The notes beneath the pieces were generated by a model. It had not been told where the DNA came from and did no database searches. It was given only the letters and a program-made list of their open reading frames with translations. From positions 3,002 through 67,001 of the forward strand of contig JBFWZQ010000014.1 in NCBI GenBank assembly GCA_050185195.1: 64,000 nucleotides of DNA. The letters run 5' to 3'. A program made the translations under genes and the position numbers. Numbering within the stretch: position 1 is the stretch's first letter; the number at the start of each line of letters is the position of its first letter. Positions 30,949-56,485 of the stretch are shown here, one piece after another. Origin of the DNA: Steroidobacteraceae bacterium (GTDB lineage: Bacteria; Pseudomonadota; Gammaproteobacteria; Steroidobacterales; Steroidobacteraceae).

Positions 30949-35878
<4,930 letters not shown>

Positions 35879-35879
<1 letters not shown>

Positions 35880-36781
35880 CAGAAGTACCCTTCCTGTTTC
35901 TTGCGCTCCATCGAAGCCACCTGGTCGCGGTCGACCGCGCGCCCCTGCCGTTCGGCGCGGCGTGACAGCAGCATCTCGGTCGTCACGTCGGCGATGGAGG
36001 CGGCGCGGCTCTCGAGCGCACCGGAGAGCGGATAGCAGCCGAGCGTGCGAAAACGCACGCTGCGCCGCCGCGGCAGCTCACCCGGCAGCAGGCGCATGCG
36101 TTCGTCGTCGACGAGCAGCAACTGCCCACCGCGCTCCACCACCGGGCGCTCGGCGGCGAAATAGAGCGGCACGAGCGGAATCTCCTCGCGCGCGATGTAT
36201 TGCCAGATGTCGAGCTCGGTCCAGTTCGACAGCGGAAACACCCGCAGGCTCTCGCCGCGCTGCTTGCGCGCGTTGTAGAGCTGCCAGAGCTCCGGCCGCT
36301 GCGCGCGTGGATCCCAGCGGTGCTGCGCCGAGCGCACCGAGAAGACCCGCTCCTTGGCGCGCGAGACTTCCTCGTCACGCCGCGCGCCGCCGAACGCGGC
36401 ATCGAAGCCGTGCCGGTCGAGCGCGGCCTTGAGCGGCTCGGTCAGCATCTGCCGCGTGTATTCCGGCGTCGGCGTATCGAACGGGTTCACGCCGCGCTGC
36501 GCCGCTTCGCGGTTTTCGGCCACGATCAGCCGCAGGCCGTGTTCGCGCACCGTGCGGTCGCGGTGCTCGAGCATCGCGCGAAAGTCCCAGCCGGACGCCA
36601 CGTGCAGCAACGGAAAGGGCGGCGGCGCCGGGTAGAACGCCTTCAGGGCAAGGTGCAGCATCACCGAGCTGTCCTTGCCGATCGAGTAGAGGAGCACGGG
36701 ATTCTCGCACTCCGCGACGACCTCGCGGAAGATGAAGAGGCTTTCGGCCTCGAGCCGGTCGAGGTGCGTCAGGGTCGTCAT
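35879..36781 (-). CDS. cysD: Sulfate adenylyltransferase subunit 2
   Basis: 300-aa ORF. PP-loop [13 protein letters not shown]; C-terminus ...[10 protein letters not shown] typical of CysD. Confidence 0.9.
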
Positions 36782-37672: not shown

Positions 37673-39505
37673 ATGTCCGCCGTCCCCGCCTTGCCACTGC
37701 TGCCCGCCGACGCGCAACCCCTGCCGGCGAGTCGCCTGCACCTGCTCACCGAGCTGACCCAGGGCCTCGACGCAGGCGCCCTGCTCTATGTGTCGGGATA
37801 TGCCGCCGGGCTCGCGGCGGCACAGCGCCAGGGCTACACGCCCGCCCACGCACCCGAGCGGATGCAGGACGCGCAGGGGGTGCGCGCCACCGTCCTCTAT
37901 GCCTCGCATACCGGCAACGGCCGCCGCATCGCCGAACGGCTCGTCGCGACACTCGAGACACGCGGCCTCGCCGCACGGGCCATTGCTGCAGGCGAGTACC
38001 CCAGTCGGGACCTCGCACAGGAACGCCTGCTGTATCTCGTCGCGAGCACGCACGGCGACGGAGACCCGCCGGACGGCGCGCGCCCGTTCTTCGACTTCCT
38101 GCTCGGCCGCAAGGCGCCACGCCTCGAGCAGCTGCACTATGCGGTGCTGGCACTCGGGGACTCGAGCTATCCGCAGTTCTGCGAAGCCGGCCGCGTGCTG
38201 GACGAGCGGCTCACTGCACTCGGGGCGACCGCGATCACGGCCCGAATCGACTGCGACCTCGATTACGAGGCCCGGGCGTCCGACTGGTCGGAGGCAGCGA
38301 TCCGGTTCGCGCTCGAGACCCTGAAACCCGTCGGCGATGCGCCCCGCCTCGCCATCGTCTCGCCACTGCGCGCCGCGACACACGCCGCGGCGCCGGCGAC
38401 CGCAACCCGCGACGCGCCGGTCGTGGTCGAAGTGCTGGCCCGCCAGCGCATCACCGGGCGCTCCAGCGATCATCCGGTGATGCACCTCGAGATCGCGGCG
38501 CCCGCGGACCTGCTCGCGTACGAACCGGGCGACGCCATGGGCGTCTGGCCTCGCAACCCGGATTTCCTCGCGGCGCGCATCGCGGAAGTGCTGAAGCTCG
38601 ACCTCGCCGCCACGGTTTCACACGCCGGCGCAGAACGATCGCTCGGCGACTGGCTCACGCAGCATCGGGAAATCACGCGCCTCTCGCGCCCGCTGCTCGA
38701 AGCGCACGCCGCGCGTTCCGGCGCGCCTGCGCTGCAGTCCCTCGTGAACGGGGATCAGCAGGCACGCGCCGCCGTCCTGCGCGACTGGCAGGTGCTCGAC
38801 CTGTTCGAGGCGTACGCGGCCGAATGGTCCGCCGAAGACCTCGTCGGCGCGCTGCGTCCGCTCGCGCCGCGCCTCTATTCGATTGCCTCGAGCCGCCGTG
38901 AAGTCGGCGACGAACTGCACCTCACGGTGGCCGCGGTCGACTATGAACGCGAGGGTGCGCGCCGCGTGGGCGCCGCGTCGTTCTTCCTCGGGTCGGATGC
39001 CCCCACGCTGCGCGCCTATGTCGAGCCGAACACGCATTTTCGCCTGCCGGCGGACCACGACCGCGACCTCATCCTGATCGGCGCGGGCACCGGCGTCGCG
39101 CCCTACCGCGGCTTCCTGCAGCAGCGCGCCGCCGATGGCGCCCGTGGTCGCCACTGGCTGCTCTTCGGGGCGCGGCGCTTCTCGAGCGACTTCCTCTACC
39201 AGGCCGAGTGGCTTGCGGCGCGCAAGCGCGGCCTGTTGCACCGGCTCGACCTCGCGGCCTCGCGCGACCAGGCGGAGAAGGTCTACGTGCAGCATCGCCT
39301 GCGCGAACAGGGTGCGGAACTATGGCGCTGGATCGAGGGCGGTGCGTCGGTCTATGTCTGCGGCGACGCGGCGCGCATGGCGCCCGACGTGCATGCGGCC
39401 CTCCTCGACGTGGCGCAGGTGCACGGCGGGCAAACGGACGATGCCGCGCAGGCCTACCTGAGCGAACTCGTCGCGGCGCGGCGCTACCTGCGGGACGTGT
39501 ACTGA
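37673..39505 (+). CDS. cysJ: Assimilatory sulfite reductase [NADPH] flavoprotein alpha-component
   Basis: Flavodoxin-like [10 protein letters not shown]; FAD motif RLYSIASS; NADPH motif [15 protein letters not shown]; C-terminus YLRDVY. Confidence 0.9.
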
Positions 39506-39506
39506 C

Positions 39507-41180
39507 ATGGCAGACGCCCCCCTGTCTCCCGTGGAACACATCAAGGCGGCGAGCCGGCTGCTGCGCGGCACGCTCGCTGACAGCCTCGCGGATGCGCCCA
39601 CGGGCGCGCTCGCCGAGGACGACACGAACATCCTCAAGTTCCACGGCAGCTACCAGCAGGACGACCGCGACCTGCGCGAAGAGCGCCGCCTGCAGAAGCT
39701 CGAGCCGGCGTACAGCTTCATGATCCGTACGCGCCTGCCGGGCGGCGTGTGCACGCCCTCGCAGTGGCTCGCGCTCGACGCCATCGCGCGCGAGCACGGC
39801 AATGGCACGCTGCGACTCACGACGCGCCAGGCCTTCCAGGTCCATGGCGTCGTGAAGCGCGACCTCAAGGCGACCATGGCCGCGATCAACGCCACGCTGA
39901 TCGACACGATCGCCGCCTGCGGCGACGTGAACCGCAACGTGATCGCGAGCGCCAATCCGGTCGAATCCAGGCTGCACGCCGAGGCCCACGGCTGGGCGTC
40001 GAAGATCTCCGCGCACCTGCTGCCGCACACGCGCGCCTATCACGAGATCTGGCTCGGCGAGGAAAAAATCGCGGGCACGCCCGAGGTCGAGCCCATCTAC
40101 GGCGCGACCTACCTGCCGCGCAAATTCAAGATCGCGCTCGCGGTGCCTCCCGTCAACGACGTGGACGTCTTCGCGCACGACCTCGGCTTCATCGCCATCG
40201 TCGAGGACGGCGCGCAGGGCCCGCGTCTCGCGGGATTCAATGTCGCGGTTGGAGGCGGCCTCGGCGCGACGCACGGGGATGCGGCCACCTACCCGAAGCT
40301 CGCGCAGGTGATCGGCTTCGTCGCGCCCACGGACACGCTCGCGGTCACCGAAGCCGTGGTCACGACGCAGCGCGATTTCGGCGATCGCGCCAACCGCAAG
40401 CACGCGCGCCTCAAGTACACGCTCGAGACCCTGGGCGTGCAGGCCTTCGTCGCCGAAGTCGAGCGGCGCGCGGGGGTCCGTTTCGCGCCAGCACGCCCCT
40501 ATGTGTTCACGACGAACGGCGATCGCTTCGGGTGGACGCAAGGCTTCGATGGCCGCTGGCATCTCAACCTGCGCATTCCATCCGGCCGCATCGCCGACCG
40601 CGACAGCGCGCGCCAGCTCACCGGCCTGCGCGAAATCGCCCGGGTGCACCGCGGGGACTTGCGCCTCACGCCGAACCAGAACCTCATCATCGCGAACGTC
40701 GCCGCCGAAGATCGCGCGACGATCGACGCGCTCGTCGTCGACCACGGCCTCGACCTCTACACGCGCGCCTCGCCGACGACTCTCGACGCGCTCGCCTGCG
40801 TCGCGCTGCCCACCTGCCCGCTCGCGATGGCCGAGGCCGAGCGCTACCTGCCCGACTTCCTCGTGGCCTTCGAAGCGCGCCTCGCGCACCATGGCCTCGC
40901 GCAGGTGCCGGTGCTCGTGCGCATCTCCGGCTGCCCGAACGGCTGCTCACGGCCCTACCTCGCCGAGGTGGCGCTCGTAGGCAAGGCGCCGGGGCGCTAC
41001 AACCTGCACCTCGGCGGCAATGCCACCGGCGAGCGCCTGAATGTGATGTATCGCGAAAACCTGTCGGAGACCGCAATCTTCGAGGCGCTCGACCCGCTGC
41101 TATGGCAGTTCGCGAACGAACGCAAGCCCGACGAACGATTTGGAGACTTCCTGTGGCGCGCGAAGCTGCTGTCCGCGTGA
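39507..41180 (+). CDS. cysI: Assimilatory sulfite reductase hemoprotein beta-component (siroheme/[4Fe-4S])
   Basis: 557-aa ORF. Cluster/siroheme cysteines in [14 protein letters not shown] and [12 protein letters not shown]. Starts 1 nt after the cysJ stop. Confidence 0.9.
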
Positions 41181-41917
41181 CGACCGACCCCGTGGCGGCG
41201 CAAGTGGCGCAGGCGCGCGCCGGTGATGTGCAGGCGCTCGAGGCGTTGAATGCCGCGCTCGCGCCGCTGTCCGCCGCCGCGCGCATCGCGTTTGCCCTCG
41301 CGCGGCTGCCGGGCCGGCACGTACTCTCCTCGAGCTTCGGCGCACAGGCCGCCGTCGCGCTGCATCTCGCGACGCAGGTTTCGCCGGACCTGCCGGTCGT
41401 GCTCGTCGACACCGGCTATCTCTTCCCCGAGACCTATCGCTTCGTCGATGAACTGACGCTGCGCCTGAACCTGAACCTGCACATCGCGCACCCGGCGGTG
41501 TCCGCAGCCTGGATCGAGGCGCGCCACGGCAAGCTCTGGGAGAACGGCGTCGAGGGGCTCGACCAGTACGGCCGGCTCGCCAAGGTCGAGCCAATGCAGC
41601 GCAAGCTCGACGAACTCGGCGCGGGCACCTGGATTTCCGGGCTGCGCCGCGTGCAGTCGGCGAGCCGCGCGGCCGCGCCGTTCCTCGCCTTGCACGGCCA
41701 TCGCTTCAAGCTGCACCCGATCGCCGACTGGACCGATCGCGACGTGGGTCGTTACCTCAAGCAGCACGCGCTGCCGTATCACCCGCTATGGGAGAAGGGC
41801 TACGTGTCGATCGGCGACTGGCATACGACGCGTTCGCTTGCCGAAGCGGGCCACCTCGAAGGCACGCGCTTCTTCGGCCTGAAGCGCGAGTGCGGCCTGC
41901 ACGGGCTCGAGGGCTGA
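41177..41917 (+). CDS. cysH: Phosphoadenylyl-sulfate (PAPS) reductase, thioredoxin-dependent type
   Basis: Last 246 codons of ORF 39749..41917. GTG at 41177 overlaps the cysI stop (GTGA). The C-terminal KRECGLH is the only Cys, with no CC...CxxC Fe-S motif. That indicates the PAPS rather than APS type, consistent with the CysC domain on CysN. Confidence 0.85.
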
Positions 41918-41920
41918 CGC

Positions 41921-43462
41921 ATGCCGACGTCCTTGCACGGGCCCCGCACCGTCACCATCGGCGCGCGCGCGAGTGCGCTGGCGCGGGTGCAGGCGCGGCT
42001 CGTCGGCGCCGCCCTTGCCGCGCAGGACCCGCGGATTGCCATTCGCTATGCCTTCGCGGACAGCGCTGGCGATCGCGAGCCGGGGGCCTCGCTGCCTGCG
42101 CTCCTGCGCGCGGGCGGCTTCACGAGTGAACTGTCAGAGGCGCTTTCCAGCTCGCACATCGACCTCGCCGTGCATTCCTGGAAGGACCTGCCGTTCGTGG
42201 AGTCGGCCACCACGCACGTCGCCGCGACCCTCGCGCGCGCCGATCCGCGTGACCTGCTGCTGGTGCGCCGCGACCGGCTCGCGCAGGGCCCCCTGCGCGC
42301 GCTGCGAGTACTGACCTGCTCGGCGCGGCGCGCTTTCAACCTGCGCGAGTTCCTCCCGTGGGCCCTGCCGGGTGGCGTGGAGCAGGTCCACTTTCATCCC
42401 GTGCGGGGCGATGTCCTGCGCCGCCTGCACCAACTGCTGACGGGAGACGCAGACGCCCTCGTCGTGGCCAAGGCGGCCATCGATCGGCTGATGGGCGACG
42501 GTGAGGCGGCTGCCGGCGCGCGTGCACAGGTGCGCACCGCACTCGAAGCCTGTCGTGTCATGGTGCTGCCGCTCACCGCGAACCCTGCGGCGCCCGCGCA
42601 AGGCGCGCTCGCCATCGAAGTGCGGCGCGATCGCAAGGACCTCGTCGAGGCCCTTGCCGCGATCAACCATGCGCCGACCTTTGCGCGGGTGACCGAGGAA
42701 CGCGCGCAGCTCGAGGCCACGCGTGACGAAGACCATCCGCTCGGCATCTCGATTGTGCCGCTCGACGGCGGCCCCGTATCGAGCGCAGCGGAAGCCCTGT
42801 TCCGGCGCGGCGCCTTGCAGGGCGTGCGCATCGACACCGCACATCTTCGCAACCGGGAGTCGCCGCTGCCCCGACCCGCACATCGCGAGGCGGTGTGGTC
42901 AGGAGCCGAATTGGAGCGCTTTGCCTTGCGTCGGCAGGCTCTCCCTGTCGACACCACGGCGTTTCTGGCGCCCGGCACGGGTCTGCTGGTCGCACGCGCG
43001 GACGCCCTGCCCGATGCCTCGCAACATCCGCACGAACAGGTGATCTGGACCGCCGGCCTCGACACCTGGCGCCGGCTCGCCGCGCGCGGCCTGTGGGTGA
43101 GCGGCAGCGACGAGAGCCTCGGCGAAACCGGAGCGCTCACCGCGCGGCACCTCTTTCCGCACGTCGATCGGTGGGTGAAGCTGACGCACGCGGCAGGCCA
43201 CGACACGCCGCACGCCACACGCGTTGCGACCTACCGGCTCGAACGCGTCGCGCCGCTCGCCGACATCCGCCCTCACACGCACTTCTTCTGGCGCAGCGGC
43301 TCGCAATTCCTCGAATACTTTCGCGCCAACGCCCGCCTGCGCGATGCCTGGCACGGCTGCGGCCCCGGCAACACCCTCGCGATCATCCGCTCGGTCATCG
43401 GGCCCGAACGCGTACGGCCGTTCCTTTCCGCCGGGCAGTTCCGCGCCGAGATGGGAGCCTGA
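41921..43462 (+). CDS. Fusion protein: HemC-like (hydroxymethylbilane synthase-like) N-terminal part + HemD-like (uroporphyrinogen-III synthase-like) C-terminal part
   Basis: N-terminal strings TIGARASALARVQA, IDLAVHSWKDLP, ADPRD, CSARR, VRGDV, AQGALAIEVR and VTEERA align by eye with E. coli HemC landmarks. The C-terminal ~200 aa (…FFWRSGSQFLEYF…GCGPGNTLAIIRSVIG) resemble the weakly conserved HemD pattern. The HemD call is tentative. Confidence 0.6.
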   Translation: MPTSLHGPRTVTIGARASALARVQARLVGAALAAQDPRIAIRYAFADSAGDREPGASLPALLRAGGFTSELSEALSSSHIDLAVHSWKDLPFVESATTHVAATLARADPRDLLLVRRDRLAQGPLRALRVLTCSARRAFNLREFLPWALPGGVEQVHFHPVRGDVLRRLHQLLTGDADALVVAKAAIDRLMGDGEAAAGARAQVRTALEACRVMVLPLTANPAAPAQGALAIEVRRDRKDLVEALAAINHAPTFARVTEERAQLEATRDEDHPLGISIVPLDGGPVSSAAEALFRRGALQGVRIDTAHLRNRESPLPRPAHREAVWSGAELERFALRRQALPVDTTAFLAPGTGLLVARADALPDASQHPHEQVIWTAGLDTWRRLAARGLWVSGSDESLGETGALTARHLFPHVDRWVKLTHAAGHDTPHATRVATYRLERVAPLADIRPHTHFFWRSGSQFLEYFRANARLRDAWHGCGPGNTLAIIRSVIGPERVRPFLSAGQFRAEMGA

Positions 43463-43466: not shown

Positions 43467-44480
43467 ATGCTGGACCGGGTCGCACCCATTGCGTCGCTGC
43501 GCGACACTGTCGCGCCACCCCGCCGCCTGCAGCGCCTGCGTCGCACGGCAGCGCTGCGCGACCTCGTCGCCGAAACTTCTTTCACGCACAGCCAGTTGAT
43601 CCAGCCCCTCTTCATCGTCGAGGACGACGCCGACGCGGGCCCGATCGCAGGCCTGCCCGGCAATGAGCGCCTGTCGCGCAACAGTGCGCTGGCGCAACTC
43701 GATGCCGATCTCGACGCGGGCGTGCGCCAGTTCCTCCTCTTTCCAGTGCCCGCTCGCAAGCACGAGCGCCACTTCGACCCCCACTTCATCTGCGAGACCC
43801 TCGCCACCCTGAAGCGTCGAACCGGCCGGGATGCCAGCCTGTGGCTCGACACCTGCCTGTGCAGCTACACCGCCGACGGACACTGCTGCCTGCACGATGC
43901 GCACGGCGAACAGGACCTGCCCGCGACCCTCGATGCGCTCGCTGAACTCGCGCTCGCCTATGCCCATGCCGGCGCCGATGGCATTGCGCCGAGCGACATG
44001 AACGACGGTCGCGTCGCGGCGCTGCGCCTCGCGCTCGATGCCGCCGGCCACGACCTCGTGCCCATCATGAGCTACAGCGCAAAGTTCGCGAGCCAGCTCT
44101 ACGGTCCCTTCCGCGGCGCCGCCCATTCGGCGCCCACGCACGGCGACCGGCGCAGCTACCAGATCGACGTGCGCTCCCGTCGCGACGCGATTGCCAGTTC
44201 GCAGCGCTGCGCCGCCGAGGGCGCCGATCTCCTGATGGTGAAACCCGGCATGAGCTCGCTCGATCTCATCCGCCCGATCGCGCAGGCCACGGGACTCGCG
44301 GTGGGCGCCTACCAGGTGAGCGGCGAATACGCCGCGCTCGCCCTGCTCGCGCGCGAAGGTTTCCTGGACTTCGATGCGGCGCTACTCGAGAGCTGGTTCG
44401 CACTGCGCCGGGGTGGCGCGGCGTTCGTCATCACCTACGGCGCGCGGCTCGGCCGCACGCTCGGCCTCGCGGCGAGGTAG
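43467..44480 (+). CDS. hemB: Porphobilinogen synthase (5-aminolevulinate dehydratase), Zn-cysteine type
   Basis: Last 337 codons of ORF 43224..44480. Zn site DTCLCSYTADGHCC. Active-site lysines in SYSAKFAS and LMVKPG. Confidence 0.9.
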   Translation: MLDRVAPIASLRDTVAPPRRLQRLRRTAALRDLVAETSFTHSQLIQPLFIVEDDADAGPIAGLPGNERLSRNSALAQLDADLDAGVRQFLLFPVPARKHERHFDPHFICETLATLKRRTGRDASLWLDTCLCSYTADGHCCLHDAHGEQDLPATLDALAELALAYAHAGADGIAPSDMNDGRVAALRLALDAAGHDLVPIMSYSAKFASQLYGPFRGAAHSAPTHGDRRSYQIDVRSRRDAIASSQRCAAEGADLLMVKPGMSSLDLIRPIAQATGLAVGAYQVSGEYAALALLAREGFLDFDAALLESWFALRRGGAAFVITYGARLGRTLGLAAR

Positions 44481-44485: not shown

Positions 44486-45694
44486 GTGTTCGACTACGAA
44501 GGGTTCTTCGAAAGCGCCAAAGCAAGGCTCAAGCGTGAGCACCACTACCGCGTGTTCCGCGAGTTGCGCCGGGCGCCGGGGCGCTTCCCACAGGCCGAAT
44601 GGCGCGCCGCCGACGGCGGGTGGCGACCCGTCACCGTCTGGTGCAGCAACGACTACCTCGGCATGAGCCAGCATCCGGCGGTGCTTCATGCCGCGCTGCA
44701 GGCGCTCGACCGCTACGGGGCGGGCGCAGGAGGCACCCGCAACATCTCCGGCACCATCGACCTGCTCGTCGCACTCGAGCGCGAGCTCGCCGGCTGGCAC
44801 GCCAAGGATGCGGCCCTGTTGTTCTCGTCGGGCTACGTCGCCAACGACACGACGCTTGCCACGCTCGCGCGCGCGCTGCCGGACGGTGTCGTATTCTCCG
44901 ACGCCGCGAACCACGCCTCCATGATCCAGGGCATCCGCGCGAGCCGGCAGCGGTGCAGCGTGTTTCGCCACAACGACGCGGCGCATCTCGACGCACTGCT
45001 CGCCGCGCACGACCCGGCCGCACCGAAGCTCGTCGCGTTCGAATCGCTCTACTCCATGGACGGCGACATCGCGCCACTTGTCGACCTGCTGGCCGTCGCA
45101 AAACACCACGGCGCCCTCACCTACGTCGATGAAACGCATGCGGTCGGCGTGCACGGGCCGCAAGGGGGCGGGTTGCTCGAAGCGCACGGCCTCCTCGACG
45201 CCGTCGACATCGTGCAGGGCGGGCTCGGCAAGGGCGTGGGCGTCGTGGGCGGCTTCATCACCGGCGCCGCCCCGATCATCGACTACGTGCGCAGCCACGC
45301 GCCGGGCTTCATCTTCACGACCGCGCTGCCGCCCCACGTCGCGGCCGCTGCGCTCGCTTCGGTTCGTCACCTCAAGGCGAGCAATGCCGAACGCGCCGCG
45401 CTTGAAGCGCGCGTGGCGAGCGTGCGCGCGGCGCTCACCGCGGCGGGCGTGCCGATTGCGCCGACCCGCAGCCAGATCCTGCCGCTGATCGTCGGCGACG
45501 CCGCGGCCTGCCACGCACTCGCAGACGACCTCCTCGAGGGGCACGGCATCTATCTGCAGGCCATCGTCCATCCCACCGTGCCCCGCGACGGCGCCCGCCT
45601 GCGCATCACACCTGGCCCGCTGCACGCCGACGCCGACCAGGCGCGGCTCGTTGCGGCGCTCGCGGACGCGTACGCGCGGCAACGCGCGGCCTGA
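44486..45694 (+). CDS. hemA: 5-aminolevulinate synthase (C4/Shemin pathway, alpha-oxoamine synthase family)
   Basis: GTG start. Long runs match remembered alphaproteobacterial ALAS: VWCSNDYLGMSQHPAVL, GAGAGGTRNISGT, FSSGYVANDTTL, NHASMIQGIRAS, VAFESLYSMDGD, YVDETHAVGVHGP, GGLGKGVGVVGGFI (PLP Lys), VRSHAPGFIFTTALPP, PTVPRDGARLRITPGPLH. Confidence 0.85.
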   Translation: MFDYEGFFESAKARLKREHHYRVFRELRRAPGRFPQAEWRAADGGWRPVTVWCSNDYLGMSQHPAVLHAALQALDRYGAGAGGTRNISGTIDLLVALERELAGWHAKDAALLFSSGYVANDTTLATLARALPDGVVFSDAANHASMIQGIRASRQRCSVFRHNDAAHLDALLAAHDPAAPKLVAFESLYSMDGDIAPLVDLLAVAKHHGALTYVDETHAVGVHGPQGGGLLEAHGLLDAVDIVQGGLGKGVGVVGGFITGAAPIIDYVRSHAPGFIFTTALPPHVAAAALASVRHLKASNAERAALEARVASVRAALTAAGVPIAPTRSQILPLIVGDAAACHALADDLLEGHGIYLQAIVHPTVPRDGARLRITPGPLHADADQARLVAALADAYARQRAA

Positions 45695-45701: not shown

Positions 45702-47132
45702 ATGCGCTACTTCCCGGTCTTCCTCGACCTGCAGGACCGCGACGTCCTCGTCGTCGGCGGCGGCACGGTGGCCCTGCGCAAGATCGAGACGCTGCGCTCG
45801 GCCGGTGCGCGCGTCACGGTCATTGCGGCGACCATTCACGAAGACCTGCAGCGCATCGCGGCGCAGGGCGCAATCCGGCTGGTCCAGCGCCGCTTCGAGG
45901 CCGCCGATATCGCTGGCCCCCACCTCCCGCGGCCGTGGCTGATCGTGGCGGCAACAGACGAACCCGCGGTCAACGCGACGACGGCGCGCGCCGCGCAAGC
46001 GGCCGGCATCGTGTGCAACGTCGTCGACGACCGCGAACTGTCGAGCGCGCTGATGCCCGCCATCATCGACCGCTCACCCGTGCAGATCGCTGTCTCGACA
46101 GGTGGCGCCTCGCCCGTGCTCGCGCGTCTCATCCGCGAACGCCTCGAGACACTCCTCGACGAGTCGCTCGGCCCGCTCGCGCGGTTCGCCGAACGCTGGC
46201 GCGCGAGCGCACGCAAGGTGCTCGCGAGTGCGGGTGCGCGGCGCCACTTCTTTTCGTGGCTTCTGACCGGGCCGGCCGCGAACGCCATCCAAGCCCGGCG
46301 CCAGGCTGATGCAGATCGAATCGCCACGCGCGAACTGGCGCGGCGCCAGCGTCTCACCGATAGCGCCGCGGCCGATCAGGGCGCCACCGGCCACGTGACG
46401 CTCGTCGGCGCAGGCCCCGGTGACCCCGGGCTGCTCACGCTCAAGGGACTGCGCGCACTGCAGGAAGCCGACGTCGTCATCCACGACCGCCTCGCGTCCG
46501 CCGAAGTGCTCGACCTCGCACGCCGCGACGCGGAGCGTATCGACGTCGGCAAACGCCCGGGTGCAGGCACGACACAGGAGGTCATCAACGCACGGATCGT
46601 CGAACATGCGCACCGCGGGCAGCGCGTGGTGCGCCTGAAGGGCGGCGACCCCTTCATCTTCGGCCGCGGCGGCGAAGAGATCGACACCCTGCGCGCGGCC
46701 GGCATTCCCTTCGATGTGGTGCCGGGCATCACCGCCGCCATCGCCGCGGGCGCCGCGGCCGCGATCCCGCTGACCGACCGGCGACATGTACACGCCGTGC
46801 GCCTGATCACGGGCAACGATCCCGCGGTCCTCGACGCGTTCGACTTCTCCGACGTCGCCGCCGGCCGCGAGACACTGGCGGTCTACATGGGCGTCGCGCA
46901 ACTGCCGGCGTTGCGCGCGCGCCTGCTGCGTGCGGGCGTTGCGCCGGATCTACCCGTCGCGCTGGTTGGGAATGCGAGCGGCGCGGGGCAGCGGGTCGTT
47001 GCGGCTACGGTGGAAAAGCTCGCATCCGCTGCCCGTTCACACGACGTTACGTCGCCTGCAATCTTGCTGGTGGGGACCGTTACGGCATCGGCTCGCGGTG
47101 GATCGGAGACCCACGTCTGCGTCGCAGTGTGA
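45702..47132 (+). CDS. cysG: Siroheme synthase (precorrin-2 dehydrogenase/sirohydrochlorin ferrochelatase + uroporphyrinogen-III C-methyltransferase)
   Basis: ORF 45651..47132 trimmed to MRYFPVFLDL. N-terminal NAD motif VVGGGTVALRKI; SUMT motifs LVGAGPGDPGLLTLKG and RLKGGDPFIFGRGGEE. Confidence 0.9.
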   Translation: MRYFPVFLDLQDRDVLVVGGGTVALRKIETLRSAGARVTVIAATIHEDLQRIAAQGAIRLVQRRFEAADIAGPHLPRPWLIVAATDEPAVNATTARAAQAAGIVCNVVDDRELSSALMPAIIDRSPVQIAVSTGGASPVLARLIRERLETLLDESLGPLARFAERWRASARKVLASAGARRHFFSWLLTGPAANAIQARRQADADRIATRELARRQRLTDSAAADQGATGHVTLVGAGPGDPGLLTLKGLRALQEADVVIHDRLASAEVLDLARRDAERIDVGKRPGAGTTQEVINARIVEHAHRGQRVVRLKGGDPFIFGRGGEEIDTLRAAGIPFDVVPGITAAIAAGAAAAIPLTDRRHVHAVRLITGNDPAVLDAFDFSDVAAGRETLAVYMGVAQLPALRARLLRAGVAPDLPVALVGNASGAGQRVVAATVEKLASAARSHDVTSPAILLVGTVTASARGGSETHVCVAV

Positions 47133-47644
47133 CAGGAAGATCGTCGAGTTGCCCGAACTGCTCGGTGAATCCCTGTGTACTTTCGGAGGCGATGGCGCCG
47201 TCCGGGCTTTCGTCATTGCCCCAGGAGAGGCGTGAATGTGCGGTCGCCTCGCGGTACTTGCCGAAGAACGCGATGGGCTCCGGGTTCCCGGCGAACACCC
47301 GTCGATACCCGCCCAGGACGCGAACGTCCATCTCGCATGAAAGCATGGCCAGGCCAGTTGCTTTCGGCACCCACCAACGCCTGAACAGCTCCGGCCACGA
47401 GCTCACGCCCGGACTTCCGCTCTGTCGTCGTGTCGTTCTGCATGGGGTAGGCTCGGTCGGGTTCTGAGCCATCCAGCAGCGCGCTGAGATGATCGTGCGA
47501 GGCATTCATGCGCGTATTCCTGATCGCTGCCCTCACGTTCGCCGGCAACCCCTTGACACGGTAGACCCGGCGCTGGAGCTCGCGCAGGCGGGGCAGTTCC
47601 TCGCACTCGTCGTCAATAACGAGGCAGGAACACACCGGCGGCAA
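47080..47644 (-). pseudogene. Possible frameshifted or decayed ORF of unknown family at the tail of the minus-strand operon
   Basis: Two overlapping minus-strand ORFs (47213..47644 and 47080..47505) each look protein-like over only half their length: ...RVYRVKGLPANVRAAIRNTRMNASHDHLSALLDG... and then ...WWVPKATGLAMLSCEMDVRVLGGYRRVFAGNPEPIAFFGKYREATAHSRLSWGNDESPDG... This is consistent with one gene broken near 47400. No family recognised. Confidence 0.25.
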
Positions 47645-47666
47645 ACGCGGCCACTGTCATGCCAAT

Positions 47667-48974
47667 CTAAGCGCGGACGATCGATCGAACGTCGACTACA
47701 TACATCTGCCTTTGGTGCTCGTGCACCGAGTCGATGCACACTTCATCGCCAGTCCGGCTCCAGCGGGGGTGCAGGTCGCAGCGGTTCACCTTGCCGAGCC
47801 TGGGGTCGGTGTAGAAACGACCGATGTCGTGTCGCCGCGCGGTGAGCGTGTCGAACAGGATCAGCAGGCGATGGTCGGTCTCGTCCGGATACGTATCCGA
47901 GAGAATCCAGCGCTTGTCAGGCGAATAGGTCATGTGCCCGTTCTCCGTGAGGCACTCGCGGCCGATGACCTCGACCTTGTCGCTGCGGTCGGTGTACAGG
48001 TGGTAGTGCGCTTCGTGCGCATGCGGCCCCCAGATCAACACGTGGTTGTCGTCACGCCAGGTGGGATGCGAGAGCTGATAAATCGACTTCTCGTAGTCGA
48101 AGATGCCCGCCTCCGTTCCAGCCGCAGCCGGGAGCGGCGCGAGGGGATGATCGCCGCATTCGAGCAGGGTGAGCTCGCTCCCGTCTGGGTTGACCGTGAA
48201 CAGGCGATGCAGCCAGCGCGTCTCATCGTCGAAGCACTCCGTCCAGCGATGCAGGAAGAGAAAGCGCTTCGAGCCCGGCGCAATTTCCAGATGCGTAACC
48301 CAGTGAAACGCGCGCTCCATCGAGGCGACCGGCTGAAACTCCCGCAGCTTGCGCAGGTCGACGATCAGTTCATGCACACCGGTCGCGATATCCATTCGCC
48401 GGATGCCTTCGTTCGACGGCGCCGGGTCGAGTGGAGCGTGAGCCGTATGTGGGAAATAGCCGATGGTCGGGTGAGCGAGCTGGAGCCGGTCGTAGTCGAT
48501 GCATAGCGCATATTCGCCGTTCGGCGCGACGACATAGACGGGCAGCGGCAGCGTTCGGCGCTCGCCGCTTTCCAGATCGGCCAACGTCGAGCCGAAATCG
48601 GGATAGGCGCCACCGGCAGCGAACGAACGGGTATTGAAGATCACGCTGGACCGCGTGTTCTCCAGCCATTGCAGCTGGCAGCCCATCTGAAAATTCCACG
48701 TCGTGGTTTCACCGAACGCCCGAAATGCCCCGCCCCGATCCAGGTCGAACACACCCACTTCGGCCGCGAAATGGATACCGAGCTGCCCCTGCATCGCATC
48801 GACCCGATGGGCAAGAAGCCGCCGCCCATCTGCGCTCCAGACCGGCTTGTTGTAATAGCCGAAGAAATGATGGGCGCTACCGTCGCCCAGTCGCACGACG
48901 GGACACTCCATCCACTGCGCCGGGGCGGCGACGGTGGCTGCGCTGTTCTGCTCCTGCATCTTGAACCTCATCAT
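47667..48974 (-). CDS. Cytoplasmic beta-propeller protein, TolB-like / PL22 oligogalacturonate-lyase-like
   Basis: 435-aa ORF with no signal peptide. HHFFGYYNKPVWSADGRRLL near the N-terminus and CDLHPRWSRTGDEVCIDSVHEHQRQMYVVDV at the C-terminus resemble the blade pattern remembered from PL22/TolB-type propellers. Confidence 0.5.
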   Translation of the reverse strand: MMRFKMQEQNSAATVAAPAQWMECPVVRLGDGSAHHFFGYYNKPVWSADGRRLLAHRVDAMQGQLGIHFAAEVGVFDLDRGGAFRAFGETTTWNFQMGCQLQWLENTRSSVIFNTRSFAAGGAYPDFGSTLADLESGERRTLPLPVYVVAPNGEYALCIDYDRLQLAHPTIGYFPHTAHAPLDPAPSNEGIRRMDIATGVHELIVDLRKLREFQPVASMERAFHWVTHLEIAPGSKRFLFLHRWTECFDDETRWLHRLFTVNPDGSELTLLECGDHPLAPLPAAAGTEAGIFDYEKSIYQLSHPTWRDDNHVLIWGPHAHEAHYHLYTDRSDKVEVIGRECLTENGHMTYSPDKRWILSDTYPDETDHRLLILFDTLTARRHDIGRFYTDPRLGKVNRCDLHPRWSRTGDEVCIDSVHEHQRQMYVVDVRSIVRA

Positions 48975-50467
48975 TTCCTGTTCGCGTCGATCGCGGCTGC
49001 GGCCATCGCCTTCGCCCGTGCGAGCACCGTATCGGTGGTGCCGAACCAGTCCGTCGGCACGGGCTCCATCGGAACATCCGGGGCAATGCCCACGGTGTCA
49101 TAGAGCTGCCCCGTTTTCTGGAAGGACGCCATGGTCGAGAGGTTGACCACGAGCTTGCTGTGCGGGAGCAGGAATTCCCGCCCGTGCCCGCTGCGCCCCA
49201 TGGTCGGCGTGCCGACCAGCGTTACATCGCGCCAATCCTTGAATGCCGACACGAAGATGTCGCCGGCACTGCCGATCCCCCAGTCGATCAGCACATAGAC
49301 GGGCCGGGAGTAGAAGCGCTTGAGCGGGTCCGCCCGCTGCGTCATGAAATACCAATCGGTGAACTTGCCCGCGGGGGGCGACCACACGGGCTGAAACGAG
49401 ACCGCAAACTGCCGGTAGGCCGCCGCTTCATCGGCGGGATTCTTCGGATTCTGCGCATAGAGCAGGCGTTTGTCCGGGCTGTCGAACACCGCGAGCGGAT
49501 CGAACGTCTTGTCGCCCTGCGGAATACGCACCTTGGCGACATTGAAGACATAGGGTGGAGAGCCCGGCGGCATGAAATAGGGGAACAGCGCATTCAGGAT
49601 TTCGCGCTTCCCGCCGCCCGATTGCCGGGCATCGATAATCAGCGCCTCGGTATTGCGAAACTCGCGCATCAGCCGGTCGATACTGTCCCGCAGCTCATCG
49701 CCCTCCTTGCCCCGGTGTGCGGCGACCCTGAGATAGCCGATGTTGCCGTCCAGGAGCCGGCTGTGCGCAGGCAGATTGAAGGGTTTCGTTGTCTCGTCAA
49801 GTGCTGTCGCAACGGGAAGCTTCAGGTGGATCGCACGTGCACCATCGGCCGACACCATCTCCAGCGCAATGTCCGGCCGGACCGGCAGCCCCATTTCGCC
49901 ACGCATGTAATTGATGTGGCGCATCAGCCGCACGCCGCGCGCAAAGCGTGCTGCCGCCGAGCTGAGTGGCCCCTGGCCAATATCCCCCGCAACCCGGAAC
50001 CACTCCTCGATGAGCACGCCATCGATCGATCGGACGAATGGAAAGTCGGCGTTCACGAATCCCGCGGGCGCGCCCGAGTAGAGAAAGTAGCGCTTGTCCG
50101 CTTTGCCGAACTGAAATGACGTGTACCCCGGCGGCACCCGTGCCGCCCAGTCGATCACTTGCGCATGATCGTCACCGAAAAGCCGGACGAGCTTGTTGAT
50201 TTGCGTCGATAGCCCGTTGACGGAGACCTTGTCGGGGAGCTTCGCCTGCATGCGCTCGATCGACTGCGCGAACGGAAACGTGACCGACCAGATGTACGAG
50301 CTGTTGCCACCGATGCACTCCTTCAGGACTTCCAGATCCGCCGCAGCCTCGGTCCGGCTGATGTACGTATCGTTGTCCTTTCGACCCAGATCGTTGCGCC
50401 CCAGATCCGCGTACACCACTGGCACGCCGCACAACGCCACGAGAGCCGGCCACATCAACGAGGTCAT
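48971..50467 (-). CDS. S41-family peptidase (tail-specific-protease-like), secreted
   Basis: ORF 48971..50566 trimmed to MTSLMWPALVALCGVPVVYA. Motifs LIIDARQSGGG and IDWGIGSAGDIFVSAFK (nucleophile Ser region). Confidence 0.7.
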   Translation of the reverse strand: MTSLMWPALVALCGVPVVYADLGRNDLGRKDNDTYISRTEAAADLEVLKECIGGNSSYIWSVTFPFAQSIERMQAKLPDKVSVNGLSTQINKLVRLFGDDHAQVIDWAARVPPGYTSFQFGKADKRYFLYSGAPAGFVNADFPFVRSIDGVLIEEWFRVAGDIGQGPLSSAAARFARGVRLMRHINYMRGEMGLPVRPDIALEMVSADGARAIHLKLPVATALDETTKPFNLPAHSRLLDGNIGYLRVAAHRGKEGDELRDSIDRLMREFRNTEALIIDARQSGGGKREILNALFPYFMPPGSPPYVFNVAKVRIPQGDKTFDPLAVFDSPDKRLLYAQNPKNPADEAAAYRQFAVSFQPVWSPPAGKFTDWYFMTQRADPLKRFYSRPVYVLIDWGIGSAGDIFVSAFKDWRDVTLVGTPTMGRSGHGREFLLPHSKLVVNLSTMASFQKTGQLYDTVGIAPDVPMEPVPTDWFGTTDTVLARAKAMAAAAIDANRK

Positions 50468-50481
50468 GGGTTGTCCTTCAC

Positions 50482-51216
50482 TCAATGGCTGATGATCTTC
50501 GAAAGAAAACGTTGCGCACGCTCCGAGCATGCGCTTGCGGGGCCGAAGAACCGCTCGCTCGCGCAATCATCGATGATCCGTCCGGCGTCCATGAAGATGA
50601 CCCGGTCCGAAACCTTGCGCGCGAATCCCATCTCGTGCGTCACGCATATCATCGTCATGCCGTCGCGGGCCAACTCGGTCATGACATCGAGCACTTCATT
50701 GACCATTTCCGGGTCCAGCGAGGACGTGGGCTCATCGAACAGCATATACGCAGGATCCATGCACAAGGCGCGTGCGATTGCCACGCGCTGCTGCTGGCCA
50801 CCGGAAAGCTGCCCGGGATGCTTCGTTGCGAACTTCCCCAGGCCGACCCGCTCCAGGTATCGCATGGCGCGCGCGTGCGCCTCCTCAGGCTTGCGCTTGA
50901 GCACCTTGACTTGCGCGAAGACCAGGTTGCGCAGAACCGTCATGTGCGGGAACAACTCAAAGTGCTGAAAGACCATGCCGACGCGCGCACGGATCGCCGG
51001 CAGCAATTTCGCCGGCCCCGGCATGGCCAGGTCGTCGATACGGATTCTCCCCTGCTGCATCGGTTCGAGCCCGTTGATGCATTTGATGAGTGTCGATTTC
51101 CCGGAGCCCGAAGGTCCGCAAACGACGACGACTTCGCCAGTCGCCACGTGCGTGGTGCAGTCGTAGAGAACCTGCGTAGATCCATACCACTTGGAGACGT
51201 TCTCTATGCTGATCAT
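50482..51216 (-). CDS. Polar amino acid ABC transporter ATP-binding protein (GltL/GlnQ-like)
   Basis: Walker A GPSGSGKST; signature LSGGQQQRVAIARAL; Walker B MLFDEPTSSLD. Confidence 0.9.
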   Translation of the reverse strand: MISIENVSKWYGSTQVLYDCTTHVATGEVVVVCGPSGSGKSTLIKCINGLEPMQQGRIRIDDLAMPGPAKLLPAIRARVGMVFQHFELFPHMTVLRNLVFAQVKVLKRKPEEAHARAMRYLERVGLGKFATKHPGQLSGGQQQRVAIARALCMDPAYMLFDEPTSSLDPEMVNEVLDVMTELARDGMTMICVTHEMGFARKVSDRVIFMDAGRIIDDCASERFFGPASACSERAQRFLSKIISH

Positions 51217-51893
51217 GTCAATACTTTCCTGCCCGACCAGTGCTCGACCAGCTTCGAGGCCGCGAAGCATAGAATGAAATATACGCCACCCGCGAACAGA
51301 TACAGCTCGACCAGCCGGCTGTCTCTTTGGCCGATCTTGGTCGCGGCACCGAGGAAATCGCTCACGCTGATGACATAGACCAGCGACGTGTCCTGGAAGA
51401 TGATGATTGCCTTGGTGAGTATCAGCGGCATCATGGCGCGAAATGCCTGCGGCAGAACGATGTAGCGCATTGCTTGGGCCCGCGTCATGCCGAGAGCGAG
51501 CGCCGCACTCCTCTGGCCCCGGCCGACACTGAGAATGCCGGCACGGATGACCTCGCAGAAGTAGGCGGCTTCGAACACCACATAGGCGATGAATGCCGAG
51601 TAATAGGGGCCGATCGGGGTGTATGTGCCCCGGACCGCTTCGATGAGCGTGGGCACCAGCAGGTAGAACCAGAAGATCGCGAGTACCAGGGGTATAGAGC
51701 GAAACAGCGTGACGTAGCCGCTCGCGAACGACGACACCCAGGTGTTCGTGGACAGGCGCATCAGGGCGAGGCCCGTCCCAAGCATGAGCCCGCCGATGAG
51801 CGAAGCGATCAGCAGCCCGAGCGAGAACGCCATGCCTTGCAACAGGAAAGGCATCGCGTCAGGCAGCACGCCCCAGTCGAACGCGTAGTTCAT
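51213..51893 (-). CDS. Amino acid ABC transporter permease (GltK-like)
   Basis: C-terminal 226 codons of ORF 51213..52538. EAA-like region AALALGMTRAQAMRYIVLPQA. ATGA overlaps at both ends. Confidence 0.85.
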   Translation of the reverse strand: MNYAFDWGVLPDAMPFLLQGMAFSLGLLIASLIGGLMLGTGLALMRLSTNTWVSSFASGYVTLFRSIPLVLAIFWFYLLVPTLIEAVRGTYTPIGPYYSAFIAYVVFEAAYFCEVIRAGILSVGRGQRSAALALGMTRAQAMRYIVLPQAFRAMMPLILTKAIIIFQDTSLVYVISVSDFLGAATKIGQRDSRLVELYLFAGGVYFILCFAASKLVEHWSGRKVLT

Positions 51894-52609: not shown

Positions 52610-52610
52610 T

Positions 52611-53540: not shown

Positions 53541-53575
53541 CGCCTGCAATCGTACGCCAAGTCCGCGCAAAGACG

Positions 53576-56410: not shown

Positions 56411-56485
56411 ATCCAGCCCCCTCACTTGATCTCTGGTTGCTCGTGCGTGTATCCCGGATGCGCGATCCGCGGACGTGATGGCGAA

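What the first reader, a model, noticed from the sequence alone, without database searches (positions are those of the whole stretch)
44486..45694. Shemin-type 5-aminolevulinate synthase in an apparently non-alphaproteobacterial context
The protein matches remembered Rhodobacter-type ALAS block by block: VWCSNDYLGM, GGTRNISGT, NHASMIQGIR, ESLYSMDGD, VDETHAVG, the PLP lysine in GGLGKGVG, APGFIFTT and PTVPRDGARLRITP. The match is much closer than I would expect for Kbl or BioF. Its placement between hemB and cysG argues for a true ALA-forming role. Outside Alphaproteobacteria, bacterial ALAS genes are mostly known from secondary-metabolite clusters (C5N units), so a primary-metabolic cofactor role here would be notable.
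Basis: partly seen in the sequence, partly recalled or inferred. Interest (0 to 1): 0.6.

Follow-up and report, generated by a model that had tools for sequence, protein, structure and literature searches.

The report
Glycine-route siroheme operon in Gammaproteobacteria
A soil/water gammaproteobacterium (Steroidobacteraceae) that cannot make heme carries a genuine 5-aminolevulinate synthase, an enzyme that reviews still assign only to Alphaproteobacteria among bacteria, built into its sulfite-reductase operon, where it appears to serve only to make that enzyme's siroheme cofactor.

Summary
ORF 44486-45694 (+, 402 aa) is a true 5-aminolevulinate synthase (ALAS). It scores 541 bits on TIGR01821 (cut-off 339), is 50-58% identical to solved ALAS structures, and keeps all catalytic and substrate-selectivity residues checked.

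The host is not an alphaproteobacterium. Six genomes of the same genus are public records titled Steroidobacteraceae or proteobacterium.

The gene lies in one tightly packed operon: cysJ-cysI-cysH-hemC/D-hemB-ALAS-cysG. Its codon usage is native and it is under purifying selection (dN/dS 0.09-0.18).

The genome lacks glutamyl-tRNA reductase, a HemL orthologue, HemE, AhbC and corrin methylases. It does encode ferrochelatase, COX1 and CcmC/F. The inferred role is therefore that ALAS is the only ALA source and siroheme the only tetrapyrrole made, while heme is salvaged.

Within the genus, ALAS, hemB and cysI are present together or absent together.

Seventeen gammaproteobacterial ALAS sequences form one 100/100-supported clade inside the alphaproteobacterial/eukaryote-like ALAS radiation. 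All 14 of these loci that reach far enough upstream carry the cys genes next to hemC/D-hemB-ALAS. A relative has hemL where ALAS sits here, which suggests in-place displacement of the C5 route.

No paper found describes this. Enzyme activity is untested.

The parts
44486..45694 (+). 5-aminolevulinate synthase (ALAS, hemA/alaS type), 402 aa. PLP lysine Lys249 (45230-45232). Thr84 (44735-44737) and Ser88 are the ALAS-type specificity residues.
   Evidence: TIGR01821 541.4 bits vs cut-off 338.55. PDB 7X98 E = 4.4e-132 and 2BWN E = 1.2e-121. Residue map. dN/dS 0.09-0.18.
37673..39505 (+). cysJ, sulfite reductase flavoprotein; first gene of the operon
   Evidence: TIGR01931 674.6 bits vs cut-off 668.15
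39507..41180 (+). cysI, sulfite reductase hemoprotein, the siroheme-dependent enzyme
   Evidence: TIGR02041 837 bits vs cut-off 756.55. Single copy in the genome.
41177..41917 (+). cysH, PAPS reductase; its GTG start overlaps the cysI stop (GTGA)
   Evidence: NF002537 274.6 bits vs cut-off 154; start codon
41921..43462 (+). hemC-hemD-like fusion (513 aa). The HemC part lacks the cofactor cysteine.
   Evidence: PF01379 142.6 bits. TIGR00212 144.3 bits, below its cut-off of 164. Aligns to E. coli HemC residues 6-235 and has ATR-DEDHPLG where the relative G017 has GGGC. dN/dS 0.24-0.27.
43467..44480 (+). hemB, porphobilinogen synthase (337 aa, ATG start with GGGAG upstream)
   Evidence: NF006762 326.5 bits vs cut-off 297; PF00490 328.7 bits; start codon; single copy
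45702..47132 (+). cysG, trifunctional siroheme synthase; last gene of the operon
   Evidence: NF007922 533.9 bits vs cut-off 400; start codon. It is the only tetrapyrrole methylase in the genome besides RsmI.
34047..36781 (-). cysD (35879-36781) and cysNC (34047-35879), transcribed divergently. Together with the operon they complete sulfate activation.
   Evidence: NF009214 483.3 bits; NF004035 935.3 bits

Best explanation
The gene encodes a functional PLP-dependent 5-aminolevulinate synthase that condenses glycine with succinyl-CoA. It is co-transcribed with cysJIH, hemC/D, hemB and cysG.

The inferred flow is: ALAS makes ALA, HemB makes porphobilinogen, the HemC/D fusion makes uroporphyrinogen III, and CysG converts that to siroheme. 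Siroheme is then inserted into CysI, which is encoded in the same transcript.

The genome has no C5 route, no uroporphyrinogen decarboxylase, no siroheme-to-heme (Ahb) route and no corrin methylases. ALAS is therefore the only source of ALA, and siroheme is the only tetrapyrrole the cell can build. Heme for COX1 and c-type cytochromes must come from scavenged heme or porphyrin; ferrochelatase is retained.

Shown here: gene identities, operon layout, gene content, phylogeny and purifying selection. Inferred: enzyme activity, co-transcription, the siroheme-only flux and heme salvage.

Evolutionary inference: an ALAS of the alphaproteobacterial/eukaryote-like crown group was acquired once, long ago, by a Steroidobacterales-like lineage. 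It took the place of hemL (and of a short GluTR) in a pre-existing cys-siroheme operon.
For: Identity:
- TIGR01821 541 bits, above its cut-off of 338.55.
- Full-length alignments to solved ALAS 7X98 and 2BWN.
- R21, N54, T83, N85, I86, S87, S137, H142, S189, D214, H217, K248, T365 and R374 (R. capsulatus numbering) are all kept. They are kept across the 17 gammaproteobacterial sequences, apart from N54->T in L031 and S87->A (an ALAS-type variant) in L031 and L045.
- AlmA/cALAS-like representatives show Ser83, and Kbl paralogues show V83/F85/C87 (criteria from PMC9356726).

Operon:
- Seven same-strand genes, with junctions from a 4-nt overlap to a 7-nt gap.

Sole route:
- No GluTR in the genome or in any of 12 genus genomes.
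- No short GluTR, no hemE and no HemL orthologue by tblastn with relatives' proteins.
- hemE 0/12 and hemH 12/12 in the genus.
- AhbC 0/19, best score 66 bits against a cut-off of 650.
- Only two TP_methylases, cysG and RsmI.
- hemB, hemC/D, cysG and cysI are single copy.
- Heme is needed: COX1 at 523 bits, plus CcmF and CcmC.

The operon behaves as a unit:
- ALAS, hemB and cysI are all present in 7 genus genomes, and ALAS and cysI fragments lie at contig ends in one fragmented assembly.
- All three are absent in 4 genus genomes.

Conservation:
- All 16 other gammaproteobacterial ALAS loci have hemB next to ALAS. The 14 that reach far enough upstream carry cys genes, in the order cysJIH-hemCD-hemB-ALAS-cysG or cysJIH-cysG-hemCD-hemB-ALAS. 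One is a complete 4.39-Mb chromosome.
- Ten such genomes have no canonical GluTR and no hemE.
- dN/dS for ALAS is 0.09-0.18, like cysI and hemB.
- Codon usage is native.

Phylogeny:
- The 17 gammaproteobacterial ALAS form one clade with 100/100 support.

Displacement:
- G051 has cysH-x-cysG-cysK-shortGluTR-hemCD-hemB-hemL, so hemL occupies the ALAS position.
Against:
- The HemC part of the fusion lacks the dipyrromethane-anchoring cysteine and scores below the HemC family cut-off. The ALA-to-uroporphyrinogen step is therefore not canonical.
- Two positions that are K/R and T in nearly all alphaproteobacterial and eukaryote-like ALAS are C/T/V and G in this clade (Rc 156 and 245).
- The genome is a 96.5%-complete MAG, so absences are strong but not absolute.
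- hemF, hemG/J/Y and heme-uptake genes were not searched.
- The GluTR search on the ten other genomes used E <= 1e-15. That threshold would miss the divergent short GluTR seen in relatives (E about 1e-11 to 1e-15).
- The sister group of the gammaproteobacterial clade is unresolved, so donor and direction are inferred.
Confidence: 0.78

Rival explanations
1. The ALAS feeds full heme synthesis as well. Uroporphyrinogen III would be carried on to protoporphyrin by unrecognised, non-homologous enzymes, with the retained ferrochelatase as the last step.
For: Ferrochelatase is present in all 12 genus genomes. The cell needs heme (COX1, CcmC/F). hemF, hemG/J/Y were not searched.
Against: - hemE is absent from all 12 genus genomes and from 10 other ALAS-bearing genomes. 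The search would have detected a divergent hemE: the G017 copy scores 257.8 bits.
- No HemN orthologue was found; the best match is a 30%-identical HemW-like protein.
- Four genus genomes keep ferrochelatase while lacking ALAS and hemB altogether, so ferrochelatase does not depend on endogenous ALA.
- AhbC is absent.
Confidence: 0.08
2. The protein is an alpha-oxoamine synthase with another specificity: AlmA-like (serine + succinyl-CoA), a cyclizing ALAS for a C5N unit, or Kbl/BioF.
For: All these enzymes share the fold and 35-50% identity. AlmA homologues are reported in gamma-Proteobacteria (PMC9356726). The clade has two unusual substitutions, at Rc positions 156 and 245.
Against: - The residues at Rc83/87 are Thr/Ser, the ALAS state. 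Ser83 is seen only in more distant representatives.
- The BioF and Kbl scores are below their cut-offs, and the genome has its own Kbl at 641.7 bits.
- No acyl-CoA ligase or amide synthase genes are nearby; every neighbour is a cys or hem gene.
- hemB, hemC/D and cysG would have no substrate without ALA, because no other ALA source exists.
Confidence: 0.04
3. The gene is an alphaproteobacterial contig wrongly binned into a gammaproteobacterial MAG, or a very recent transfer.
For: The genome is a MAG of 34 contigs. The window shows a composition break at about 47.1 kb.
Against: - The ALAS side of the break has the genome's own composition: contig 68.2% GC vs genome 68.6%, ALAS GC3 z = 0.00. The low-GC right flank is the atypical part.
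- The same operon occurs in 6 other independently assembled MAGs of the genus, on contigs up to 361 kb, and in a closed 4.39-Mb Steroidobacteraceae chromosome.
- The nearest alphaproteobacterial ALAS is only about 59% identical.
Confidence: 0.02

Closest known systems
Alphaproteobacterial 5-aminolevulinate synthase (HemA/AlaS; Rhodobacter capsulatus, PDB 2BWN/2BWO/2BWP; also PDB 7X98)
   Same: Same length and fold family. 50-58% identity over the full length, all catalytic, PLP-binding and substrate-binding residues checked are kept, and it falls in the same crown clade of the tree.
   Different: The host is a gammaproteobacterium. The gene sits in a sulfite-reductase operon. The product can reach only siroheme, not heme or bacteriochlorophyll. 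The clade has its own residues at Rc156 (Cys/Thr/Val instead of Lys/Arg) and Rc245 (Gly instead of Thr).
Siroheme genes carried with the siroheme-dependent enzyme (E. coli nirBDC-cysG; Bacillus subtilis cysH operon with sumT-sirB-sirC). Recalled from knowledge, not tested here.
   Same: The cofactor-making genes are co-transcribed with the enzyme that needs the cofactor.
   Different: Those operons start from uroporphyrinogen III supplied by the cell's general heme pathway. This operon carries the whole pathway from glycine + succinyl-CoA, in a cell that has no general pathway.
C5-based cys/hem operons of relatives in the same order (G051: cysH-x-cysG-cysK-shortGluTR-hemCD-hemB-hemL; G017: shortGluTR-hemCD-hemB-hemL-...-hemE-hemN)
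   Same: Same hemCD-fusion-then-hemB core. In G051 it is also linked to cysH and cysG, and its HemC is also cysteine-less.
   Different: ALA comes from a short GluTR plus HemL. ALAS sits where hemL sits, and the short GluTR is missing from the window's genome.
AlmA (alaremycin) and cyclizing ALAS of Streptomyces C5N pathways (PMC9356726, PMC4525017)
   Same: Non-alphaproteobacterial ALAS homologues.
   Different: Those have Ser at Rc83 (and Gly at Rc87 in AlmA), lie in secondary-metabolite clusters, and coexist with the C5 pathway. None of these features applies here.

Membership tests
5-aminolevulinate synthase (EC 2.3.1.37; NCBIfam TIGR01821) | Whole-protein score above the curated equivalog cut-off, and higher than for sister families | tested here: met
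   541.4 bits vs cut-off 338.55. BioF 341.8 (<426.45) and Kbl 291 (<460).
5-aminolevulinate synthase (EC 2.3.1.37; NCBIfam TIGR01821) | PLP Schiff-base lysine and PLP-binding His/Asp/His (Rc K248, H142, D214, H217) | tested here: met
   K249, H143, D215 and H218 in the window protein. Kept in all 17 gammaproteobacterial sequences.
5-aminolevulinate synthase (EC 2.3.1.37; NCBIfam TIGR01821) | Glycine/succinyl-CoA specificity residues: Thr at Rc83, Ser/Ala at Rc87, plus R21, N85, I86 and R374 | tested here: met
   T84, S88, R22, N86, I87 and R373. Criteria taken from PMC9356726. Control rows show S83 in AlmA/cALAS-like sequences and V83/F85/C87 in Kbl.
5-aminolevulinate synthase (EC 2.3.1.37; NCBIfam TIGR01821) | Falls within the ALAS clade of the alpha-oxoamine synthase tree | tested here: met
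   It lies inside the crown group with alphaproteobacterial and long eukaryote-like ALAS, apart from the Kbl outgroup (100/100).
5-aminolevulinate synthase (EC 2.3.1.37; NCBIfam TIGR01821) | Catalyses glycine + succinyl-CoA -> ALA + CoA + CO2 | not testable with these tools
   Needs an enzyme assay or complementation of an E. coli hemA mutant.
Cyclizing ALAS / AlmA (secondary-metabolite ALAS homologues) | Ser at Rc83 (Gly at Rc87 in AlmA), and a cluster with an acyl-CoA ligase/amide synthase or alaremycin genes | tested here: not met
   The residues are Thr84/Ser88. All neighbours are cys or hem genes.
Kbl / BioF | Score above the family cut-off | tested here: not met
   Below both cut-offs. 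The genome's real Kbl is on contig C8 (641.7 bits vs cut-off 460).
Complete siroheme pathway (ALA -> siroheme) | HemB, HemC, HemD and CysG (or equivalents) all present and canonical | tested here: inconclusive
   HemB and CysG score above their cut-offs. The HemC-HemD fusion scores 144.3 bits, below the HemC cut-off of 164, and lacks the cofactor cysteine. It does keep the Arg/Lys/Asp substrate-binding motifs visible in the alignment.

The most novel reading that the evidence does not exclude
The cysJIH-hemCD-hemB-ALAS-cysG unit is a self-sufficient 'sulfite reduction plus private cofactor synthesis' cassette. In it, a laterally acquired ALAS displaced the tRNA-dependent C5 enzymes in place. 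The cassette is gained and lost as a block among heme-auxotrophic Steroidobacterales-like Gammaproteobacteria. It would let lineages that abandoned tetrapyrrole synthesis keep, or regain, sulfate assimilation. Analogous cassettes built on unrelated ALAS lineages, including ALAS-HemC fusions, would have arisen independently elsewhere. ALAS would then be a recurrent solution for siroheme-only metabolism rather than an alphaproteobacterial hallmark.
Probability: 0.4. Interest if true: 0.72.

Novelty: new variant of a known kind. Interest (0 to 1): 0.6.

Why it matters
Reviews up to August 2026 state that alpha-proteobacteria are the only bacteria with ALAS (PMC13564367; likewise PMC11480375 and PMC9356726). 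This locus shows a well-conserved clade of at least 17 species-level genomes. Roughly 58 protein clusters at 90% identity share 61% or more identity with the query. In this clade of Gammaproteobacteria, ALAS is the only ALA source.

It is also a clean natural example of a tetrapyrrole pathway cut down to a single product, siroheme, and physically tied to its single client enzyme, in bacteria that respire with heme they cannot make.

This matters in three ways:
- Pathway prediction in MAGs: a C4 module does not imply an alphaproteobacterium, and ALAS does not imply heme synthesis.
- Understanding heme auxotrophy and cofactor cross-feeding in soil and freshwater communities.
- The evolution of the Shemin route.

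It also supplies a compact four-gene glycine-to-siroheme module that can be tested directly in E. coli.

Tried and rejected
- The promoter/terminator scan of 37.0-47.8 kb found no promoter-like site, and terminator-like sites were no more frequent than in shuffles. It is uninformative in this 70% GC DNA.
- There is no tRNA gene anywhere in the window, so the composition break at 47.1 kb is not a tRNA-linked island border.
- The ferrochelatase neighbourhood on C7 showed no heme-uptake genes by inspection of the ORF translations.
- The hemB homologue search aimed to learn whether hemB came from an alphaproteobacterium along with ALAS. It returned almost only unnamed metagenome proteins at 64-87% identity and did not settle the origin.
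- Trees could not resolve the sister group of the gammaproteobacterial ALAS clade, which joins a polytomy. I therefore make no claim about a donor lineage and did not run an AU test.
- The mis-binning and recent-transfer ideas were rejected on composition and on recurrence in independent assemblies.
- The Kbl/BioF and AlmA/cALAS readings were rejected on scores, residues and context.
hemF, hemG/J/Y, heme transporters and a relaxed-threshold GluTR search on G061-G070 were therefore not run.
Full report
**1. The observation**

The window has an open frame at 44486-45694 on the + strand (GTG start, 402 aa).

The protein scores 541.4 bits on NCBIfam TIGR01821, 5-aminolevulinate synthase (cut-off 338.55). 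It is below cut-off for BioF (341.8 vs 426.45), Kbl (291 vs 460) and serine palmitoyltransferases. Against solved structures, the best matches are bacterial ALAS 7X98 (E = 4.4e-132) and Rhodobacter capsulatus ALAS 2BWN (E = 1.2e-121), each aligned end to end. Human and yeast ALAS come next, and BioF/Kbl follow far behind at about 1e-62 or weaker.

Mapped onto 2BWN numbering, R21, N54, T83, N85, I86, S87, S137, H142, S189, D214, H217, K248, T365 and R374 are all kept. Thr83 and Ser/Ala87 are the positions that separate ALAS from AlmA and cyclizing ALAS (Ser83, Gly87), according to PMC9356726. In my alignment these positions do discriminate. Distant representatives carry Ser83, and the Kbl paralogues carry V83/F85/C87. 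The genome has its own Kbl on another contig (641.7 bits vs cut-off 460).

**2. The surroundings**

ALAS is the sixth of seven same-strand genes:

| Gene | Coordinates | Evidence |
|---|---|---|
| cysJ | 37673-39505 | over NCBIfam cut-off |
| cysI | 39507-41180 | over NCBIfam cut-off |
| cysH | 41177-41917 | over NCBIfam cut-off |
| hemC-hemD-like fusion | 41921-43462 | Pfam domain; HemC model below cut-off |
| hemB | 43467-44480 | over NCBIfam cut-off |
| ALAS | 44486-45694 | over NCBIfam cut-off |
| cysG | 45702-47132 | over NCBIfam cut-off |

Junctions run from a 4-nt overlap to a 7-nt gap. cysD and cysNC are transcribed divergently just upstream. CysI is the siroheme enzyme, and the last four genes are the steps from glycine and succinyl-CoA to siroheme.

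**3. The host**

The window is part of a 3.21-Mb, 34-contig genome, 96.5% complete and 68.6% GC. Six loci from genomes that the genome search labels 'same genus' are exact substrings of public records. Those records are titled Steroidobacteraceae bacterium, uncultured Steroidobacteraceae bacterium or uncultured proteobacterium. NCBI places Steroidobacteraceae in Gammaproteobacteria, order Steroidobacterales. The closest ALAS proteins in the large protein collection are named the same way. The refutation condition 'the host is an alphaproteobacterium' is not met.

Mis-binning is unlikely for three reasons:
- The contig has the genome's composition.
- ALAS has exactly the genomic mean GC3 (0.878, z = 0.00) and a typical synonymous-codon score (z = -0.13, against 1199 proxy genes).
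- The operon recurs in independent assemblies, including a closed 4.39-Mb chromosome.

The composition break near 47.1 kb is real, but the atypical side is the right flank (GC3 z from -2.6 to -3.5).

**4. What the genome can and cannot make**

Absent:
- Glutamyl-tRNA reductase gives no match at all in the genome. In the other 11 genomes of the genus it gives only weak hits (E >= 1e-6) confined to the NAD-binding segment. The same search rings in all 14 control genomes.
- tblastn with proteins taken from relatives' hem operons finds no short GluTR and no HemE in the genome. It finds only 30-35% identical aminotransferases in place of HemL, and only a 30% identical HemW-like match to HemN.
- HemE is absent from all 12 genus genomes.
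- AhbC, needed for the siroheme-to-heme route, is absent. The best score is 66 bits against a cut-off of 650.
- The only tetrapyrrole-methylase-fold genes are cysG and one that carries an RsmI C-terminal domain, so there is no corrin pathway.

Present:
- Ferrochelatase is in all 12 genus genomes.
- hemB, hemC/D, cysG, cysI and ALAS are single copy.
- The genome encodes COX1 (523 bits), CcmF and CcmC, so it uses heme.

The straightforward reading is that ALAS is the only ALA source, siroheme is the only tetrapyrrole made, and heme or porphyrin is scavenged.

**5. The operon behaves as a unit**

Within the genus, ALAS, hemB and cysI are all present in G000-G005 and G009. They appear as fragments at contig ends in the fragmented assembly G006. 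All three are absent in G007, G008, G010 and G011. None of the other 48 genera sampled in the family and order has an ALAS above cut-off.

A scan of one genome per species across bacteria found further ALAS genes at 59-68% identity. They are in MAGs titled Steroidobacteraceae, Steroidobacterales, Nevskiaceae, Gammaproteobacteria or Pseudomonadota. In each of the nine I could check, ALAS follows hemCD-hemB. The order is cysJIH-cysG-hemCD-hemB-ALAS wherever the locus reaches that far.

Ten of these genomes have no canonical GluTR (E <= 1e-15) and no hemE (E <= 1e-8). One caveat applies: the 1e-15 threshold would have missed the divergent short GluTR described in section 7.

**6. Selection and phylogeny**

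Against six congeners, dN/dS is:

| Gene | dN/dS |
|---|---|
| ALAS | 0.09-0.18 |
| cysI | 0.11-0.15 |
| hemB | 0.10-0.16 |
| cysG | 0.15-0.22 |
| hemCD | 0.24-0.27 |

All five genes are under purifying selection.

I built a 167-row tree and a more careful 81-row tree (LG+C20 PMSF), both rooted on Kbl. In both, the 17 gammaproteobacterial ALAS form one clade with 100/100 support and a long stem (0.39). It has two subclades that match the two gene orders. The clade sits inside the crown group that holds alphaproteobacterial and long, eukaryote-like ALAS. Its sister is unresolved because it joins a polytomy.

The clade has its own residues at two otherwise conserved positions: Rc156 is Cys/Thr/Val instead of Lys/Arg, and Rc245 is Gly instead of Thr. 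From memory of the 2BWN paper, Thr245 contacts the PLP phosphate; I did not verify this.

One old acquisition from the alphaproteobacterial radiation is the most economical reading. The donor is unknown.

**7. How it may have arisen**

Relatives in the same family and order keep C5-based hem operons:
- G017 has shortGluTR-hemCD-hemB-hemL-(two-component system)-hemE-hemN.
- G051 has cysH-x-cysG-cysK-shortGluTR-hemCD-hemB-hemL.

The short GluTR is about 304-328 aa. The G017 copy scores only 56 bits on TIGR01035. The G051 copy got no NCBIfam match at E <= 1e-8 and is 34% identical to the G017 copy.

In the ALAS operons, ALAS sits directly after hemB, where hemL sits in these relatives, and the short GluTR is gone. 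This suggests that one enzyme displaced the two-enzyme C5 entry in place, within an existing cys-siroheme operon. The inference rests on two comparison genomes.

Other metagenomic variants lack ALAS: cysJIH-hemCD-hemB-cysG, and cysDNC-JIH-hemB-cysG. Both have a tyrosine recombinase gene just downstream.

**8. A caveat inside the pathway**

The HemC half of the fusion aligns to E. coli HemC residues 6-235 and keeps the Arg/Lys-Asp/Arg-Arg substrate motifs. It has ATR-DEDHPLG where G017's HemCD has the canonical GGGC with the cofactor cysteine. All ALAS-operon HemCDs, and G051's, lack a cysteine at that aligned position. The HemC model score (144.3) is below its cut-off of 164.

An earlier report of this scan deals with this gene. 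I confirm that the cysteine is missing. Purifying selection and strict co-occurrence with ALAS, HemB and CysG argue that the fusion works, possibly by a variant mechanism.

**9. Comparison with what is known**

The enzyme is an ordinary ALAS by every sequence test. What differs is the host class, the operon, and the fate of its product.

The literature I could search says the following:
- A 2026 Chemical Reviews article states that alpha-proteobacteria are the only bacteria with ALAS.
- Two other recent papers say the same.
- No paper pairs ALAS with Steroidobacter(aceae).

Public annotation pipelines already name these MAG proteins '5-aminolevulinate synthase', so the gene calls are not new. 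The biology is undescribed.

Earlier notes of this scan report ALAS in SAR86 heme clusters and ALAS-headed siroheme operons in Bacteroidota. I checked only one point: ALAS-HemC fusion proteins do exist among the representatives (P0163 at 917 aa, P0240 at 738 aa, and P0205). Their ALAS parts lie on branches far from the gammaproteobacterial clade. If those notes are right, ALAS has been recruited to siroheme operons more than once.

**10. Verdict**

It extends to a siroheme-only Shemin pathway in a heme-auxotrophic gammaproteobacterial lineage. I rate it a new variant of a known kind, with interest 0.6. Enzyme activity, co-transcription and heme auxotrophy remain to be shown experimentally.

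Noticed in passing
window 41921-43462: The HemC-HemD-like fusion lacks the dipyrromethane-anchoring cysteine: it has ATR-DEDHPLG where the relative G017 has GGGC. It scores below the HemC NCBIfam cut-off (144.3 vs 164). All ALAS-operon copies, and the C5-type cys/hem operon of G051, share the loss. The heme-operon copy of G017 keeps the cysteine.
   Followed up: partly
window 47100-64000: There is a sharp composition break. The right flank is 60-66% GC with GC3 z-scores of -2.6 to -3.5 against the genome. It has no counterpart downstream of cysG in any congener locus, and no tRNA gene lies anywhere in the window. The left flank is syntenic with only some congeners: only about 0.9 kb upstream of cysJ is shared by all six, and cysD/NC only by two.
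   Followed up: partly
L101:8107-9093 and L103:7466-8380: Relatives in the same family and order carry a short (304-328 aa) GluTR-like gene directly upstream of hemCD-hemB-hemL. The G017 copy scores only 56 bits on TIGR01035 (cut-off 209.55), and the two copies are 34% identical to each other. Standard annotation would call these genomes GluTR-less.
   Followed up: partly
L104 (ERZ25039476 contig_4289) and L105 (JBAIGX010000014.1): These are related sulfite-reductase operons without ALAS: cysJIH-hemCD-hemB-cysG (with frameshifted cysJ and cysG) and cysD-cysNC-cysJIH-hemB-cysG (with no hemCD either). Each has a phage-type integrase gene immediately downstream of cysG.
   Followed up: no
P0163 (917 aa), P0240 (738 aa), P0205 (532 aa): Representative proteins that fuse an ALAS-like aminotransferase domain to a porphobilinogen deaminase domain. 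They sit on tree branches distant from the gammaproteobacterial ALAS clade.
   Followed up: partly
L056 (NZ_VCCH02000035.1) and L082 (CAYORM010000069.1): Two records titled Mycobacterium sp. KBS0706 and uncultured Mycobacteriaceae carry ALAS. The first groups tightly with Inquilinus limosus (end branch 0.009) and the second with an alphaproteobacterial MAG. The organism labels look wrong, or the assemblies are contaminated.
   Followed up: no
window 36789-37562 (-): The ORF just upstream of cysD, first in the divergent operon, gave no NCBIfam match at E <= 1e-10. It is the only left-flank segment conserved next to cysJ in all six congener loci.
   Followed up: no
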